A stretch of 37,078 nt of DNA from a virus. Its lineage: Duplodnaviria; Heunggongvirae; Uroviricota; Caudoviricetes. Made by a program: the position numbers. The DNA lies in the IMG/VR virus record IMGVR_UViG_2537562172_000008; one strand, written 5' to 3'. Below, in pieces: positions 27,001 through 33,000 of this stretch. How positions within the stretch are numbered: the first letter of the stretch is position 1; every line of letters begins with the position of its first letter.

Positions 27001-30000
27001 TTTCCATCTTTACCCTCGCTTATCCACATAACTTATTGATTACATTGATAACTAAAAAGATCGTCGATTCAGAACTCTTCGATGTTCCAGCCACCACCTG
27101 CTTTCTTTGGCTTAACCGTTACCCCGATGATTCGGAACGGATACTGATCTGCGGCGACTTTGGTTTTCACCCTGGCGTCGTCGGTCCAGAAACCTTTCAC
27201 TTCGTGCAGTTACATCTCGCCGGTGGCGAGCATCACAGCGAAATCGGGCGTATAAAACGTGTTATCAGCTAACCGCAGCTTGATACCCTCGAATCGATAC
27301 CAGGCGATTTCCCCTGCACGTTTACGCTGCTCAAGGTGCTGGCAATACGCAGATTCTGTTTTGTTCATCTGTCCTGTTTTGAGTCGACCAAGAGCCTGTA
27401 TCTGTTTTCTCATGATTTACCTCTGAGGTAATTAAAAACCACATAAGACACGAAATCAATAGATCTAAGAATATTTTGTTACCCATTGGGTAACTACACA
27501 GGCGTAAAAAAATGCGCTGCCGCGCTGGTGCTACCTGATGAGTCCTGCCGCCTTTCCTCGCCTGTATTCCTCCATCAGCCACTGCGCCGGTGTTATTCCC
27601 CCAAGGGTGGCGGCGTTAGGCATGCACCCGAAACTTCGCCCTGGTGGATGGTAAACGTCTCTGCCTGTGTCCGGAGATGTACTCATGGGTTCTGGCTTTG
27701 CCTGTATGCTGATCACCGGATCGGGTATCTGCTGTCCGGAAGCCACCTTTTTCGCCCAATCATCGAGCAGCCTGCGCGCGTGTTTCTCAACCTCAATCTC
27801 GCTAAGCTGGCGCTGATACATTGCACGGCGGGTATCACATACGACCCAGTACATAACCGGATGCCGCCACGGGAATCTTTCGGGACCACCAGGATATAAA
27901 CTTTTTTCCTTGCTGTACCGGTGAAACTCCGCCATCACATCGTCAATGGTGACGCCAAGAACCATCTTGCTGTCTTTGCACCACTTGATGAATTGCCCTG
28001 GCGACGGCCAGAACGGAGACTCACTGGCGCGGGCGTGGCGCATACCAGCAGAAACCTGTTCACGGGTTCGGATCCCCCCTTCGGCAAACGCAGCAATCCA
28101 CTGCTGTTTTGCAGCAACTTCCTGCTCTGGCGTCTTCAGGTTGGTTACCACTGCCGCCGGAAACAGTTGTTTCAGCTGTTTGAAAAGGGCATCAACAAGC
28201 CTCTCTGCTGACATGTTCACCACGTTGTCATTGTTGGTGTACTGATGCTCATAACCTGACATGCGAGAAAGGGCTTCTCCGTCACGGTTTTGTATTGCGG
28301 TAAAAACGTTGTTCACAAGAAATCCTCCCACGCTTCAGGGCTGTTCCAGTGCGGAACGTTGTTATCAGGTAATGTTGATTGCTTCTGTCTGCTAATCTGC
28401 AGCCGCCTTGCCAGCTTCTGCTCCCACTGTGCCTGATGGTATGCCTTACCCTCAGCCATCCAGTAAATTCTGAACTCTGCAAGTTCCTGTGCCGTTGGCA
28501 GACTGTCCAGGTAGATCCCCTGCAATGAGCTTTTCCGAAGAAAGTCATCTGATGGCTGCCATTGTTCATGCATGACAAATTTGCCTAATTGCCCTGGCCC
28601 ACCAGGAGGAACAAAGTTATTCATCACGGCGTTGTTTGCGCCGGGGTCATGATGCACAGAATCCCCGGTTTTTGTCCTGCTCTCCCTCTCTTGGTTAAAT
28701 GACTGGTTATATGACTGGTTCTGGATCCCGTTTTTGGGATCATTCAACATCCCGTTTTTGGGATCATTCAACATCCCGTTTTTGGGTATATTCCCGTTTT
28801 CGGTAACATTACCGTTTTCGGGTTCATTACCCCCTTCCCGGTTGCCTTTAATGTTCCCGTTTTTGGTTATATTAAGAGAGAAAACCCGCACTCTTTTCGT
28901 CGCTCCCTTTCTCTCTCCGGTATCTGAAATAAGCCCCATTTTCATGAGCGATATAAGTCCGGCCTGCACGGTTTTTTTATTCAGGCAAGTGTCTTTAACT
29001 AGGCGTTCTATGCTGGGGTAGCAGAGGTTATATTCATCGGCTCTGTCAGCCATCGAGAGCAGTATGAGCTTTAATGATGAGCTGCCTGGATCTGTCTCCC
29101 AGGCCCAATCTGTTGCATGTCTGCTCATGATTAATCTCCGCTATCAGCTTGAGTGTTGTGGGGAGGAATTAATCATGATCTGCTTAATCTCTGCCCTGAT
29201 GCGACGGTTTGATTCCATGGTGCACTCAACACAGTGTCCGTTGTAAACCCAGCGTTCACTGTCATGTCCGTGCTTACATTGTTTTCCGGTGTAATAGCGT
29301 TTAAGTCCGCGCTTTGCGGCATCAATACGTGTAATGATTTCCATGGTAAGCCCTGTTATTAGTATTGGGATTACGGTCATTTTGTGCTGACACAAAAAAA
29401 AGATCAACCACATTTGGTTTTTTATTACCTTTGAGGTGCGAATAGATATGAAAAGACCGCCGGATGGCGGTCTACAGAGGGTTGTGGCTGGATATCATGA
29501 GTAGAAGAAGTATGCCAGTTCTGCTTTTGAGCGCAGCCATTGTCTTGTTTTACAGGCTTTAAAAAGCCCATTCATCAATACCTTACCTGGCATTTTGCGC
29601 TTACCTGTTAAGTGAGTCTGGATATAGTGACTCGTCGTTCCGGCTTCCTGTGCGAAGGCTTCACGCTCATCCGGAGTAAGTGCAAGCCAGTGCTTTTTGA
29701 AATCGAAATGTCCGTTATCGCTCATAGCTATTGCCTGATATTTATTTCAGATAATAAATATTCACCCATAAGGTAACAAAAATCAAGGATAGTTACCTAT
29801 GGGGTGCATTTACCTGTTGGGTAATATTGCTTTAAATTGAATCATCTACTGATTCATATATGAGGCGATTTTCCAGAAAATGAAAAGTATCCAGGACGTC
29901 CGCAGGCAAAATCTCAACGACTTGATCGACCGTGAATTCAATGGTGTTCAGACGCGGATGGCAGAAAAACTTGGAACTCAGGCAAATCTGGTAAACCGCT

Positions 30001-33000
30001 GGGCTCTTGGCAAGAAGGTTATCGGCGACCAGGTTGCGCGAAAAATTGAAGCTGCCGCCAATAAACCCCGTAACTGGCTTGATATCGATCGCTCGCTTTC
30101 TCAGGAAGGTTTTCAGCCTGTCGGCCCAAGCGACATTGGTCAGCTGGCGGCTCACAACCTGGAACGCTGGATGAGCGAAAGCCGCGACCTTTCAACACAG
30201 GGAAAACTTCACCGCGCATCCGGCGTCGCCCAGGTGACAATCAGCCGCCTGTTAAACAATGAGGTCAGCGTTTCCATTTCCACCCTGGAGAATGTTGCAT
30301 CCGCATTCGGGCGTCACGGCTATGAATTACTGATTCACCCGCACGACCCTGCGACTATCAACTATGACCGCTCGCGCTACGCATTGTTACCCGAAACAGA
30401 GAAGGCAAAGATCGAAAGTTACATTGAATTTGTCATCAACCAGAACGAAAAAAACAAACAATAAAATCATATTTTTCAGTAAGTAAGCCGCCTCATGGCG
30501 GCTTTTTTATTGCCAGCAGGATTACCTTATGGGTAATTTTTTTAACTCATATCTATTGACATCAAACCAGATACGCATAATCATTACCTCAACGGTAACA
30601 GACCGAGGTAACAAATTATGCAGTGGAAAATCATCAACGGTTGGTACTGCGTTACTGCATGCGGATTCATGAGCTGGAAGTTCCGCACCTTACAGGAAGG
30701 CATTAAGTGGGCTTTCGTCAGCAAAGAAGCTCGCGATGTGGCAAACGATAACGAGATATGGGAGTAGGTTAGCAAATGAGTGAATTATCAATCATCGAAA
30801 TCACACCAGACATGGCACCAAGAATTTACGTTGAAAAAGGGCTGGAAAAGTTTCTCGAGCAGATCCGTGAAGGTGTTAATGAAGTGCCTGACATTAGCAC
30901 AGACAAAGGCAGAAAGCGCATTGCATCTCTGGCTGCGAAGGTTTCAAGAAGTAAAACAGCGGTAGAAAAACCAGGACGTGATTATCTGAAACGCCTGAAA
31001 GAACAGCCGAAAGTAGTTGAAGCAGAGTTACGACGCTTCGTAACCGAATGCGATCGGCTTCGTGATGAAGTACGCCGCCCACTCACCGAGTGGGAAAATG
31101 CTGAGAAATTACGCACTGAAGCACTGCAACAACGCCTGACAAATTTGCGAGCACTAGCTGACGTGATCGATCTCTCCGGAAACTACTTGCCATCATCTGA
31201 TATTCAGGAACGAATTCAAGAGGCTAAATCAGTAGCACTTGATGAAAGTTGGCAGGAGTACGCAGCAGAAGCTGGAGTAGCCAAGGATTCAACCATCCAG
31301 AAACTGGAAGAATCACTCGCAGTAGCTCAAAAACGCGAGCATGAAGCCGATGAGCTGGAGCGACTTCGCAAAGAAGCGGAGGAAAAAGCGCGCATTGAGC
31401 GAGAAGAGAATATCCGCCGGGAAGCTGCTGAACAGGCCAGGCTCGAAGCTGAACAAAAAGCGAAAGCTGAAATTGAGGCTGCGGCACGCCTGGCGGTGGA
31501 AGAAAAAGCACGTGCTGAAGTAGCAGAACGTCAGCGAATTGAAGCAGAGCAGCGTGCACGACGCGAAAAAGAAGAAGCCGTTGCCGAGGAACGCCGACGC
31601 CAAGAGGCGGCAGAAAAAGCCCGCCTTGACGAACAGAAGCGTATCGCCGACGAAGAAGCGCGCCGAGCTGCAGATAAAGAGCATCGCCGTACCGTTAACA
31701 GCAGAGTAATCGCAGATCTGATAGCCCAAGGCATTCCCGAAGAATTCGCGCAGAAAGCAATGTTGGCTATCGCTGGCGGCAAAGTGCAGGACGCGTATAT
31801 CAAATATTGAGGTGGGTATGAACGTTAATCAGCAGAAAAATCTTCAAAAAATCATGCTGGCATTCGACAAGGACTACCGCCTGTCAGAACAGCTATATGA
31901 CCGACAAGTTGAACTGATTGAGAGTATCCGGCTTCATCAACTGGCATCAACTTTCGACGTTGTAACAGTTAAAGGCGTTCGCCAGGAAGTACTAGAGGCC
32001 GCTAAAGACAGCCCTGAGTTCGAAGAACTAATGGATGCCTACCGGCGCGAGGCAATGGCAATTATCGCCCGCTGGGATCTGGCTGATCAGATTGATGGGC
32101 AGAGGGACGCGGCATGAATCCGGGAATTTATTTCGATATCAGCAACGATGACTACCACGCCGGTGACGGCGTGAGTAAGTCGCAGCTAGATATGGTGGCT
32201 AAGAACCCTGCCCTTCTGAAATGGGTGAAGGCTGCTCCGGAAGACGAAGAGAAGAAGTCTGCACTGGACATGGGTACTGCTCTGCACTGTCTGCTTCTGG
32301 AACCTGGAGAGTTTGACAAACGCTTCATCGTTTCACCGAAATTCGATCGTCGGACAAAACAAGGTAAAGCTGACGAAGAGGCATTTATTCGTGATGTAGC
32401 GGATATGGGGATTTCGGTACTTGATGCAGAGCAGTGGCGAAAACTGGAGCTGATGCGTGCTAGCGCAATGGCTCACCCGGCGGCACGCTGGATGTTGGAA
32501 GCACCTGGTTACTGCGAAGCATCAATGTACTGGAACGATGAAGATACGGGTGAGTTGTGCCGAATTCGTCCAGACAAATGGCTGAACGAGCACAACGTGA
32601 TCGTCGACGTGAAAAAGGTTGCAGATATGGACCGTTTTGCACGCCACATCGAGGAATTCCGCTACCACGTGCAGGACGCAATGTACCGCGAAGGCGCAAT
32701 GAGGGTTACTGGTCAGCCGCATGGTTTTTTCTTTCTTGCCGTGAGCGAAAGCATTGATTGTGGTCGGTATCCGGTACGCGTGTTCGAGCTGGATGCGCCG
32801 GATGTCGATGCCGGGCACGCTCTGTTCCACCGGGATCTGAATACCTATCACGAATGCCGCATCAACGATGAGTGGGGCGGAGTGGAAATTATTAAACGCC
32901 CTGACTGGGCACGTAAACAGGATATGTACGTATGAGCAATGATATCGCAATCACATCACAACCAGGCGCAACTGTAGGTACTGCTGCGGCAATCTTCAGC

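What the first reader, a model, noticed from the sequence alone, without database searches (positions are those of the whole stretch)
29425..30611. Immunity region built on a 15-bp palindrome TTACC-N5-GGTAA, with a tandem-HTH repressor
Seen: three operator copies between the divergent cro-like and repressor genes (29762-29824), two perfect copies plus a half-site at the early-left promoter (30522-30611), and a degenerate copy just past the cro terminator (29425-29439). The repressor transcript ends in a strong terminator (30485-30510) immediately before the P_L-like promoter, so the lambda-like logic (O_R, O_L, repressor between them) is kept although the repressor has two HTH domains in one chain. 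Inference: one polypeptide may contact both half-sites, or dimers may bind cooperatively; Cro probably competes at the same sites.
Basis: partly seen in the sequence, partly recalled or inferred. Interest (0 to 1): 0.55.

Follow-up and report, generated by a model that had tools for sequence, protein, structure and literature searches.

The report
Known phiV10/epsilon15-type phage repressor operators
The repeated TTACC-N5-GGTAA palindrome is real and marks the repressor binding sites of a very common phiV10/epsilon15-type E. coli prophage. The switch is already known: the sites are annotated in epsilon15, and the repressor and antirepressor structures are solved for Salmonella phage SPC32H.

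Summary
The window has 8 perfect TTACC-N5-GGTAA palindromes against 0.03 expected. There are none in 148.5 kb of E. coli K-12 plus lambda DNA.

The window is a phiV10-like (Uetakevirus) prophage. Its repressor is 100% identical to phiV10 p40 and is a full-length homologue of SPC32H Rep (PDB 5D50, E=4e-42). The epsilon15 GenBank record already annotates ATTACC-N5-GGTAAT sites as repressor binding sites at the same kinds of location.

The "second HTH" corresponds to Rep's middle dimerisation domain. A papers-based description of SPC32H Rep places the DNA-binding domain at the N-terminus and says Rep binds palindromes as a tetramer. An exact palindrome also argues against one chain reading both half-sites with two different domains.

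The "half-site" at 30605-30611 is most likely the ribosome binding site of the first P_L gene.

Verdict: real, well described, already known, low interest. One side lead is a second conserved palindrome, AACCATATATGGTT, at several promoters.

The parts
29425..29439 (.). Weak operator copy (TTACCTTTGAGGTGC, 2 mismatches) just downstream of the cro-like gene's terminator
   Evidence: A site of the form nnACC-N5-GGTAA holds the same position in phiV10, Tyrion, epsilon15 and SPC32H. On its own it cannot be told from background.
29454..29473 (-). Intrinsic terminator after the cro-like gene
   Evidence: 8-bp stem with 6 G-C pairs, then a T run. phiV10 annotates a terminator at the matching place.
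29495..29725 (-). Cro-like 76-aa HTH protein, homologue of epsilon15 gp39 and phiV10 p41
   Evidence: PHROG 35 'transcriptional repressor', E=5.6e-13. 76% identical to epsilon15 gp39, with the stretch EAGTTSHYIQTHLT invariant. Weak similarity to the Rep N-terminal HTH. The AF2 model has five helices, pLDDT 81.6. The best fold matches are YdaS and the 434 repressor DNA-binding domain, TM about 0.6, none significant.
29751..29779 (-). P_R-like promoter for the cro-like gene (TTGTTA-17-TATTAT)
   Evidence: Operator 29762-29776 fills its spacer and overlaps its -35 hexamer.
29762..29776 (.). O_R site over P_R (TCACCCATAAGGTAA, 1 mismatch)
   Evidence: All five genomes carry an imperfect TCACC variant at this position.
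29793..29807 (.). Middle O_R site (TTACCTATGGGGTGC, 2 mismatches)
   Evidence: The right half GGTGC is the same in phiV10 and Tyrion. The equivalent site is perfect in epsilon15 and SPC32H.
29810..29824 (.). Rep-proximal O_R site (perfect)
29880..30464 (+). Rep repressor, 194 aa: N-terminal HTH DNA-binding domain, middle HTH_3-like dimerisation domain, C-terminal tetramerisation and Ant-binding domain
   Evidence: PDB 5D50_A over residues 1-190, E=4e-42. 100% identical to phiV10 p40, 78% to Tyrion, 43% to epsilon15 and SPC32H. No S24 peptidase domain. Domain roles come from PMC9986798.
30485..30510 (+). Intrinsic terminator ending the rep transcript
   Evidence: stem 30485-30504, then a T run. 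Annotated in phiV10.
30522..30536 (.). Distal O_L operator (perfect), centred about 62 bp upstream of the inferred P_L start
30556..30584 (+). P_L-like promoter (TTGACA-17-AATCAT)
   Evidence: 10 of 12 matches. CTATTGA is invariant in 10 aligned cassettes.
30584..30598 (.). Proximal O_L operator (perfect), abutting the -10 hexamer and covering the inferred start site
   Evidence: It lies exactly 62 bp from the distal site in all five genomes.
30605..30611 (+).
   Evidence: no left half is present. epsilon15 and SPC32H carry a full third operator followed by a separate GAGGT before the homologous ATG.
27417..27493 (-). Second copy of the same operator-promoter cassette, after the replication gene P
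   Evidence: Layout: distal operator 27479-27493, -35 TTGATT 27454-27459, -10 TTTAAT 27431-27436, proximal operator 27417-27431. The proximal operator contains the ribosome binding site of the DUF1064 gene. Basis. It aligns without gaps to the P_L cassette in 5 genomes, with 62-bp spacing invariant.
23926..23958 (.). Two operators 18 bp apart (23926-23940 with 1 mismatch, 23944-23958 perfect) directly before the small terminase start codon
   Evidence: epsilon15 annotates its equivalent, 12-27, as a repressor site.
20784..20798 (.). Operator upstream of the gp3/portal operon
   Evidence: epsilon15 annotates the equivalent, 2931-2947.
4186..4200 (.). Operator in the ant-tailspike intergenic region
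   Evidence: epsilon15 annotates the equivalent, 19895-19911.
4240..4255 (.). LexA box (TACTGTATAAATATACAGT) in front of ant
   Evidence: A box holds the same position in all five genomes.
4277..4534 (+). Ant, small antirepressor, 85 aa
   Evidence: PDB 5D50_E 'Anti-repressor protein', E=4.6e-47, about 88% identical. Same gene order as SPC32H ant-tsp.

Best explanation
This is the lysogeny switch of a phiV10/epsilon15-type (Uetakevirus) prophage. It is of the SPC32H Rep-Ant kind.

Binding. Rep (29880-30464) binds the palindrome (A)TTACC-N5-GGTAA(T) through its N-terminal HTH domain. Two N-terminal domains read the two identical half-sites. The middle HTH_3-like domain and the C-terminal domain assemble the protein into dimers and tetramers. 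A tetramer therefore offers two DNA-binding heads.

Early promoters. At P_L (30522-30598) and at the homologous promoter after the replication genes (27417-27493) two operators lie exactly 62 bp apart, close to six helical turns. One abuts the -10 hexamer and covers the start site. The other lies upstream of the -35 and the A/T-rich stretch before it. A single tetramer could hold both and clamp the promoter. At O_R one imperfect site fills the spacer of the cro promoter. Two further sites lie 31 and 48 bp away towards rep.

Other targets. Further operators sit in front of the terminase, portal and tailspike genes. Rep probably silences or roadblocks these units directly in the lysogen.

Induction. 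Rep has no self-cleavage domain. DNA damage removes LexA from the box at 4240-4255, Ant (4277-4534) is made, and Ant takes Rep off the DNA.

What is shown and what is inferred. Shown here: sequence homology, site positions, site statistics and site conservation. Taken from work on SPC32H: domain roles, tetramer binding and Ant action. Inferred: one tetramer bridging the 62-bp pair, direct repression of late operons, and any role of the Cro-like protein.
For: - Motif statistics: 8 perfect sites against 0.03 expected. None in 148.5 kb of K-12 and lambda, against 8-11 in each of five Uetakevirus genomes.
- The epsilon15 GenBank record annotates seven ATTACC-N5-GGTAAT sites as 'protein_bind: repressor' at the terS, gp3, tailspike, O_L and post-replication positions.
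- Rep is a full-length homologue of SPC32H Rep, 5D50_A, E=4e-42. Ant is a homologue of 5D50_E, E=4.6e-47. A LexA box precedes ant. Rep has no S24 domain.
- Domain roles and tetramer binding to palindromic sites come from PMC9986798 and PMC9638917.
- Overexpressing the ZX5 repressor cut endolysin and holin transcripts by more than 99.9% (PMC9782041). The ZX5 immunity region is 97.9% identical in DNA to the window.
- Ten promoter cassettes (P_L and post-replication, five genomes) align without gaps. The half-sites, CTATTGA and the 62-bp spacing are invariant, while the N5 spacers and flanks vary.
- The N-terminal helix NL(V/I)(N/S)RW is nearly invariant in 55 homologues down to 42% identity. The N-terminal domain has the lowest sequence entropy of all segments.
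- Three distant homologue loci (Rep 54-59% identical to the window's) again have TTACC as the top 5-N5-5 palindrome at O_R and O_L.
Against: - No binding experiment exists for this exact protein and these exact sites. The primary SPC32H and epsilon15 papers could not be read here, so the binding details rest on secondary descriptions and the GenBank annotation.
- The rep promoter could not be located. The best-consensus O_R site lies next to rep and not over P_R, the reverse of lambda, so the autoregulatory logic is unclear.
- The middle domain keeps a conserved HTH_3-like signature (Q118 in at least 90% of sequences; T120 in the five genomes; R123 invariant). Sequence alone does not exclude some DNA contact by it.
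- Operator and recognition helix never vary, so no covariation test was possible.
Confidence: 0.85

Rival explanations
1. One reading: a single Rep chain uses its two HTH domains to contact the two half-sites of one 15-bp palindrome.
For: - Two HTH-like segments lie in one chain. phiV10 annotates 'two helix-turn-helix motifs'.
- The second HTH keeps conserved positions: Q118 in at least 90% of sequences, T120 in the five genomes, R123 invariant.
Against: - The half-sites are exact inverted repeats. This requires two copies of the same reading head related by a dyad. Two different domains (NLVNRW against QVTISRLL at the recognition position) would predict an asymmetric composite site.
- In the homologue SPC32H Rep the middle domain is a dimerisation domain and the DNA-binding domain is N-terminal (PMC9986798). 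Binding is by a tetramer whose N-terminal domain pairs come from different dimers (PMC9638917).
Confidence: 0.04
2. The palindrome is shared: the Cro-like 76-aa protein binds the same TTACC-N5-GGTAA sites and competes with Rep, as in lambda. This adds to the best explanation and does not replace it.
For: - The protein is a small HTH protein (PHROG 35) with a five-helix model resembling YdaS and the 434 DNA-binding domain.
- It shows weak similarity to the Rep N-terminal HTH.
- Its HTH is invariant across the genus, as is the operator.
- It is divergently placed at O_R.
Against: - Its putative recognition helix (TSHYIQTHL) shares little with Rep's (QANLVNRW).
- A second conserved palindrome, AACCATATATGGTT, lies at several of the same promoters and has no assigned protein. 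It could be this protein's site instead.
- No data exist.
Confidence: 0.35
3. The copies outside the immunity region (4186, 20784, 23926-23958) are not functional operators. They would be promoter or ribosome-binding-site look-alikes, or relics.
For: - GGTAA overlaps Shine-Dalgarno-like GAGGT/GGTGG sequences at several sites.
- No expression data exist for these units in a lysogen.
Against: - All are full 10/10 or 9/10 palindromes in intergenic DNA. They keep their position in five genomes that differ in their N5 spacers and flanks.
- epsilon15 annotates them as repressor sites.
- The chance expectation is 0.03 per window.
Confidence: 0.08

Closest known systems
Salmonella phage SPC32H Rep-Ant switch (PDB 5D50, 5D4Z; Kim & Ryu 2013; Kim et al. 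2016)
   Same: - Full-length Rep homologue, E=4e-42.
- Ant about 88% identical.
- LexA box before ant, the same ant-tailspike and cro-rep-P_L gene order, and the same TTACC-N5-GGTAA sites with the same 62-, 17- and 30/31-bp spacings.
   Different: - Rep is only 43% identical overall: N-terminal domain 53%, middle domain 34%, C-terminal domain 43%.
- SPC32H and epsilon15 have a third full operator before the first P_L gene where the window has only GAGGTAA.
- The imperfect half of the P_R operator lies on the opposite side.
Salmonella phage epsilon15 gp38 repressor and its annotated binding sites (GenBank AY150271.2)
   Same: The same 17-bp palindrome is annotated as 'protein_bind: repressor' at the terS, gp3, tailspike, O_L and post-replication positions.
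   Different: The record does not annotate the three O_R copies, the proximal post-replication copy or the holin-upstream copy that the scan finds. The host and the repressor allele differ.
Escherichia phages phiV10 (p40) and vB_EcoP_ZX5 (ORF21)
   Same: - The Rep protein is identical to phiV10 p40, and the region is 97-98% identical in DNA.
- Overexpressing ZX5 ORF21 shut off lytic transcripts (PMC9782041).
   Different: - Neither the phiV10 record nor the ZX5 paper maps operators.
- phiV10 carries a Bro-N antirepressor-like gene where the window has only a terminator and a small ORF between ant and the structural genes.
- The DUF1064 gene is frameshifted in the window.
Lambda CI/Cro with O_R and O_L
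   Same: Divergent cro and repressor genes around a three-site O_R. The repressor gene lies between O_R and O_L. Operators are palindromic.
   Different: - No S24 self-cleavage domain; induction is through a LexA-controlled antirepressor.
- O_L is two sites 62 bp apart that flank the promoter, not three adjacent sites.
- The best-consensus O_R site lies next to rep, not over P_R.
- Further operators lie at late and middle promoters.
- A terminator follows cro directly.
Phage P1 C1 and mycobacteriophage L5 gp71 (operators dispersed over the genome)
   Same: One repressor with many sites scattered over the genome, including in front of late genes. This rests on established knowledge, not on a test here.
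   Different: Those operators are asymmetric and the proteins are unrelated. Here the sites are symmetric and only 10-15 per genome.
Bacillus plasmid pLS20 Rco/Rap (TetDloop tetramerisation domain)
   Same: An N-terminal HTH DNA-binding domain plus a C-terminal tetramerisation domain, relieved by an antirepressor-like partner. PMC9986798 states the structural likeness to SPC32H Rep.
   Different: Rco lacks the middle dimerisation domain and forms long-range loops. It has no sequence relation to the window's operators.

Membership tests
SPC32H-type Rep-Ant lysogeny switch (Uetakevirus) | Full-length Rep homologue (N-terminal HTH domain, middle domain, C-terminal Ant-binding domain) | tested here: met
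   5D50_A matched over residues 1-190, E=4e-42. Alignment with SPC32H and epsilon15 Rep.
SPC32H-type Rep-Ant lysogeny switch (Uetakevirus) | Small Ant antirepressor encoded next to the tailspike gene | tested here: met
   Window 4277-4534 matches 5D50_E, E=4.6e-47. Same gene order as SPC32H ant-tsp.
SPC32H-type Rep-Ant lysogeny switch (Uetakevirus) | LexA box at the ant promoter | tested here: met
   CTGT-N8-ACAG at 4240-4255, 22 nt before the ant ATG. A box holds the same position in five genomes.
SPC32H-type Rep-Ant lysogeny switch (Uetakevirus) | Repressor without a RecA-dependent self-cleavage (S24) domain | tested here: met
   Pfam finds only HTH families.
SPC32H-type Rep-Ant lysogeny switch (Uetakevirus) | ATTACC-N5-GGTAAT operators at O_R, O_L and further promoters | tested here: met
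   The epsilon15 annotation agrees.
SPC32H-type Rep-Ant lysogeny switch (Uetakevirus) | Rep binds DNA as a tetramer and is released by Ant | not testable with these tools
   Known only for SPC32H, from secondary descriptions (PMC9638917; PMC9986798).
Lambda-type CI/Cro switch | Divergent repressor and cro genes around a multi-site O_R, with the repressor gene between O_R and O_L | tested here: met
Lambda-type CI/Cro switch | LexA-like S24 peptidase domain for RecA-stimulated self-cleavage | tested here: not met
   No S24 match. The C-terminal half matches the SPC32H Rep 92-198 structure instead.
Lambda-type CI/Cro switch | Three adjacent operators at O_L overlapping P_L | tested here: not met
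   Two sites 62 bp apart flank the promoter.
Lambda-type CI/Cro switch | Cro binds the same operators with the reverse order of affinity | not testable with these tools
   Only the HTH-like nature of the 76-aa protein is shown.
Single-chain tandem-HTH binder reading both halves of one site | Composite, asymmetric site matching two different reading heads | tested here: not met
   The sites are exact inverted repeats. The two HTH segments differ at the recognition helix.

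The most novel reading that the evidence does not exclude
Two things are not excluded and may be undescribed.

1. Every member of this repressor family sampled here keeps one operator sequence and one recognition helix. The sample covers Escherichia, Salmonella and Enterobacter phages plus Rep loci 54-59% identical, one from a protein labelled Serratia. 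The dimerisation and Ant-binding domains diverge. Immunity would then be shared at the operator level across the whole family and diversified, if at all, at the antirepressor interface. Rep would directly gate every transcription unit of the phage.

2. A second conserved palindrome, AACCATATATGGTT, lies in the core of the portal, tailspike, holin and post-cro promoters. It may be the site of a second, unidentified regulator. Candidates are the Cro-like protein, the gp40-like protein with a C-x3-H...C-x2-C motif, and the gp49-like protein.
Probability: 0.3. Interest if true: 0.4.

Novelty: already known. Interest (0 to 1): 0.15.

Why it matters
The finding has little value as a discovery. The operator palindrome is annotated for epsilon15. 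The repressor-antirepressor mechanism is solved for SPC32H. This exact immunity region occurs in about 10% of complete E. coli genomes.

It has some practical value. It gives a complete operator map for the phiV10-type prophage, which the phiV10 record lacks. It corrects the reading of the "tandem HTH". It shows that induction should depend on LexA and Ant, not on repressor cleavage.

The invariant 62-bp operator pair around two promoters is a clean, testable case of a tetrameric repressor clamping a promoter.

Tried and rejected
- Primary papers. I tried to read Kropinski 2007 (epsilon15), Kim & Ryu 2013 and Kim et al. 2016 (SPC32H). None is held. Their content is cited only through secondary papers, the GenBank annotation and PDB entries.
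- Covariation between recognition helix and operator. The IMG/VR scan returned 80 loci with 99-100% identical Rep. A search of the large protein collection gave homologues down to 52% identity, but the helix NL(V/I)(N/S)RW and the operator never change. Only co-occurrence could be shown.
- Rep promoter (P_RM). No convincing sigma-70 match was found between 29825 and 29880 by scan or by eye. It is left open.
- Cro-like protein. It has no Pfam, NCBIfam or PDB sequence match. The fold search gave only non-significant HTH-type matches, best E about 1. This supports 'HTH-like' and no more.
- The two 2-mismatch sites cannot count as significant on frequency alone. They are kept only because their position is conserved.
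- GAGGTAA at 30605-30611 was rejected as an operator half-site. It has no left half and lies at Shine-Dalgarno distance from the ATG.

Full report
**What the window is.** The reported region and its surroundings match Escherichia phages phiV10, phiv142-3, ZX5 and relatives at 97-99% identity. Most of the rest of the window matches the same phages. The genus is Uetakevirus, the epsilon15-like temperate podophages. An integrase ORF at the right end and the gene order indicate an integrated prophage. The 1.2-kb immunity region occurs at 95% identity or more in 540 of 5,426 complete E. coli genomes. Eighty IMG/VR contigs carry a 99-100% identical repressor.

**Check of the observation.** All named elements are present.
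- O_R holds 29762-29776 (1 mismatch), 29793-29807 (2 mismatches) and 29810-29824 (perfect).
- O_L holds 30522-30536 and 30584-30598 (both perfect) plus GAGGTAA at 30605-30611.
- A 2-mismatch copy lies at 29425-29439.
- Terminators lie at 30485-30504 (+) and 29473-29454 (-).
- A strong P_L-like promoter, TTGACA-17-AATCAT, lies at 30556-30584.
- A P_R-like promoter, TTGTTA-17-TATTAT, lies at 29779-29751 on the minus strand. Operator 29762-29776 fills its spacer.

The window has 8 perfect palindromes against 0.03 expected from shuffles. As a control on real sequence I scanned two 50-kb segments of E. coli K-12 and the lambda genome. They hold no perfect site in 148.5 kb. Each of five Uetakevirus genomes holds 8-11. 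Two-mismatch matches are at background frequency (27 in the window, 17-25 in each control). The copies at 29793 and 29425 therefore stand only because the same positions hold a site in the relatives.

**What it is.** The 194-aa protein is 100% identical to phiV10 p40, 78% to the Tyrion homologue, and 43% to the epsilon15 and SPC32H repressors. It matches SPC32H Rep in the PDB over its whole length (5D50_A, E=4e-42). Its C-terminal half matches the Rep 92-198 structure (5D4Z).

Pfam finds HTH_3 at residues 106-147 above its cut-off and a weak YdaS-type HTH at residues 21-61. It finds no S24 peptidase domain. For SPC32H Rep, PMC9986798 describes three domains:
- an N-terminal DNA-binding domain;
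- a middle dimerisation domain;
- a C-terminal domain that tetramerises and binds the antirepressor Ant.

PMC9638917 reports that Rep binds DNA as a tetramer. It adds that the domain pairs reading the palindromic sites come from different dimers, and that tetrameric Ant binds two Rep dimers and breaks up the tetramer.

The epsilon15 GenBank record already annotates seven 'protein_bind: repressor' features. Their sequences are ATTACC-N5-GGTAAT. They lie in front of terS, gp3 and the tailspike gene, at O_L (three sites), and after the replication gene.

Window 4277-4534 (+) encodes an 85-aa protein about 88% identical to SPC32H Ant (5D50_E, E=4.6e-47). A LexA box, TACTGTATAAATATACAGT at 4240-4255, precedes it. 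Gene order and box position are kept in all five genomes compared. Overexpressing the ZX5 repressor cut endolysin and holin transcripts by more than 99.9% (PMC9782041). The ZX5 immunity region is 97.9% identical in DNA to the window.

**Anatomy beyond the reported range.** Five more perfect sites and one 1-mismatch site lie elsewhere in the window.
- 27479-27493 and 27417-27431 flank a minus-strand promoter, TTGATT-17-TTTAAT, after replication gene P.
- 23926-23940 and 23944-23958 lie directly before the small terminase start codon.
- 20784-20798 precedes the gp3/portal operon.
- 4186-4200 lies between ant and the tailspike gene.

The P_L cassette and the post-replication cassette from five genomes (ten sequences) align without a gap. 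The order is distal operator, A/T-rich stretch, CTATTGA containing the -35, a 17-nt spacer, the -10, and the proximal operator. The half-sites, CTATTGA and the 62-bp spacing are invariant. The N5 spacers and flanks vary. The proximal operator abuts the -10 and covers the inferred start site. In the post-replication cassette its right half, GAGGTAA, also serves as the ribosome binding site.

The O_R spacings (17 and 30/31 bp) and the terS spacing (18 bp) are likewise kept. Spacings of 62 and 31 bp are close to whole numbers of helical turns. This fits a tetramer with two DNA-binding heads. That step is inference.

An exact inverted repeat calls for the same reading head twice. The two HTH segments differ at the recognition position (NLVNRW against QVTISRLL). 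Together with the SPC32H domain assignment, this argues against one chain reading both half-sites.

Across 55 homologues down to 42% identity the N-terminal domain has the lowest entropy, and its helix NL(V/I)(N/S)RW is nearly invariant. Three distant loci, whose Rep proteins are 54-59% identical to the window's, again have TTACC as their most frequent 5-N5-5 palindrome at O_R and O_L. Two of them keep the 62-bp P_L pair. Because neither partner varies, this shows co-occurrence, not covariation.

In epsilon15 and SPC32H a full third operator stands there, followed by a separate GAGGT. I read GAGGTAA as the Shine-Dalgarno sequence.

**The Cro-like protein.** The evidence supports a small lambda-repressor-like HTH protein:
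- PHROG 35 'transcriptional repressor'.
- 76% identity to epsilon15 gp39, with an invariant HTH stretch.
- Weak similarity to the Rep N-terminal HTH.
- A five-helix AF2 model, pLDDT 81.6.
- Best fold matches to YdaS and the 434 repressor DNA-binding domain, TM about 0.6, none significant.

Nothing shows which DNA it reads, so "Cro competes at the same sites" remains a guess.

**Open points.**
- The rep promoter was not found.
- The best-consensus O_R site lies next to rep. The site over P_R is imperfect in all five genomes. This is the reverse of lambda.
- A terminator follows the cro-like gene directly. After it come the weak operator and a second conserved palindrome. How transcription reaches the replication genes is unclear.

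**Verdict.** It is wrong about how the two HTH segments are used, and it omits induction and the wider set of sites. The system is a known one: the epsilon15 annotation, the SPC32H Rep-Ant structures, and the phiV10 and ZX5 genomes. Novelty is nil and interest is low.

Noticed in passing
window 29406-29419, 20732-20745, 4146-4159; half copy 27437-27444; also L002 24736 and 33132, L004 26452, 34215 and 35385: A second conserved palindrome, consensus AACCATATATGGTT, is distinct from the Rep operator. In the window it follows the weak post-cro operator directly, and it lies 37-57 nt downstream of the Rep operators at the portal and tailspike promoters. In relatives it also occurs at the holin promoter and, in Tyrion, in the P_L spacer. 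The positions match in five genomes. All five exact ATGTGGTT copies in the window lie on the minus strand. The binding protein is unknown.
   Followed up: partly
window 27069-27413 (-): The DUF1064 gene downstream of the post-replication promoter is split into a 67-aa and a 43-aa ORF (27210-27413 and 27069-27200). phiV10 has one intact 114-aa gene there. This is a likely frameshift in this prophage.
   Followed up: no
window 23923-24004 (-); L002 41-715: The small terminase ORF as listed, and as annotated in phiV10, starts at an upstream TTG. That start would run through a terminator and both operators. The ATG at 23926 or 23923, directly after the operators, matches the epsilon15 start and is the more likely one.
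   Followed up: partly
L002 26870, L003 26882, L004 28568, L005 26960 (attP region, outside the window): A conserved near-operator, TTACC-N5-GGTAT (1 mismatch), lies between the lysis-operon terminator and the integrase gene in all four phage genomes, next to attP. Its function is not examined.
   Followed up: no
window 29880-30464 compared with L003, L005, L089-L091: The operator sequence and the N-terminal recognition helix are the same in all sampled Rep homologues. These span Escherichia, Salmonella and Enterobacter phages and loci down to 54% identity, including one from a protein labelled Serratia. The middle and C-terminal domains fall to 34-43% identity, yet Ant stays about 88% identical between the window and SPC32H. 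This suggests immunity shared at the operator level across the family.
   Followed up: partly
window 29144-29344 (-): The gp40-like 66-aa ORF after the cro terminator carries a CKHGH...HCVEC motif that looks like a zinc-binding site. It belongs to PHROG 1081, function unknown, and has no Pfam match. It is a possible small regulator.
   Followed up: no
L089 3094-3360: In the locus encoding the Rep homologue labelled Serratia, a DNA polymerase III theta-like gene (PF06440) overlaps the end of rep by 4 nt, so they are probably co-transcribed. It lies between rep and the O_L operators, which are 75 bp apart there instead of 62.
   Followed up: no
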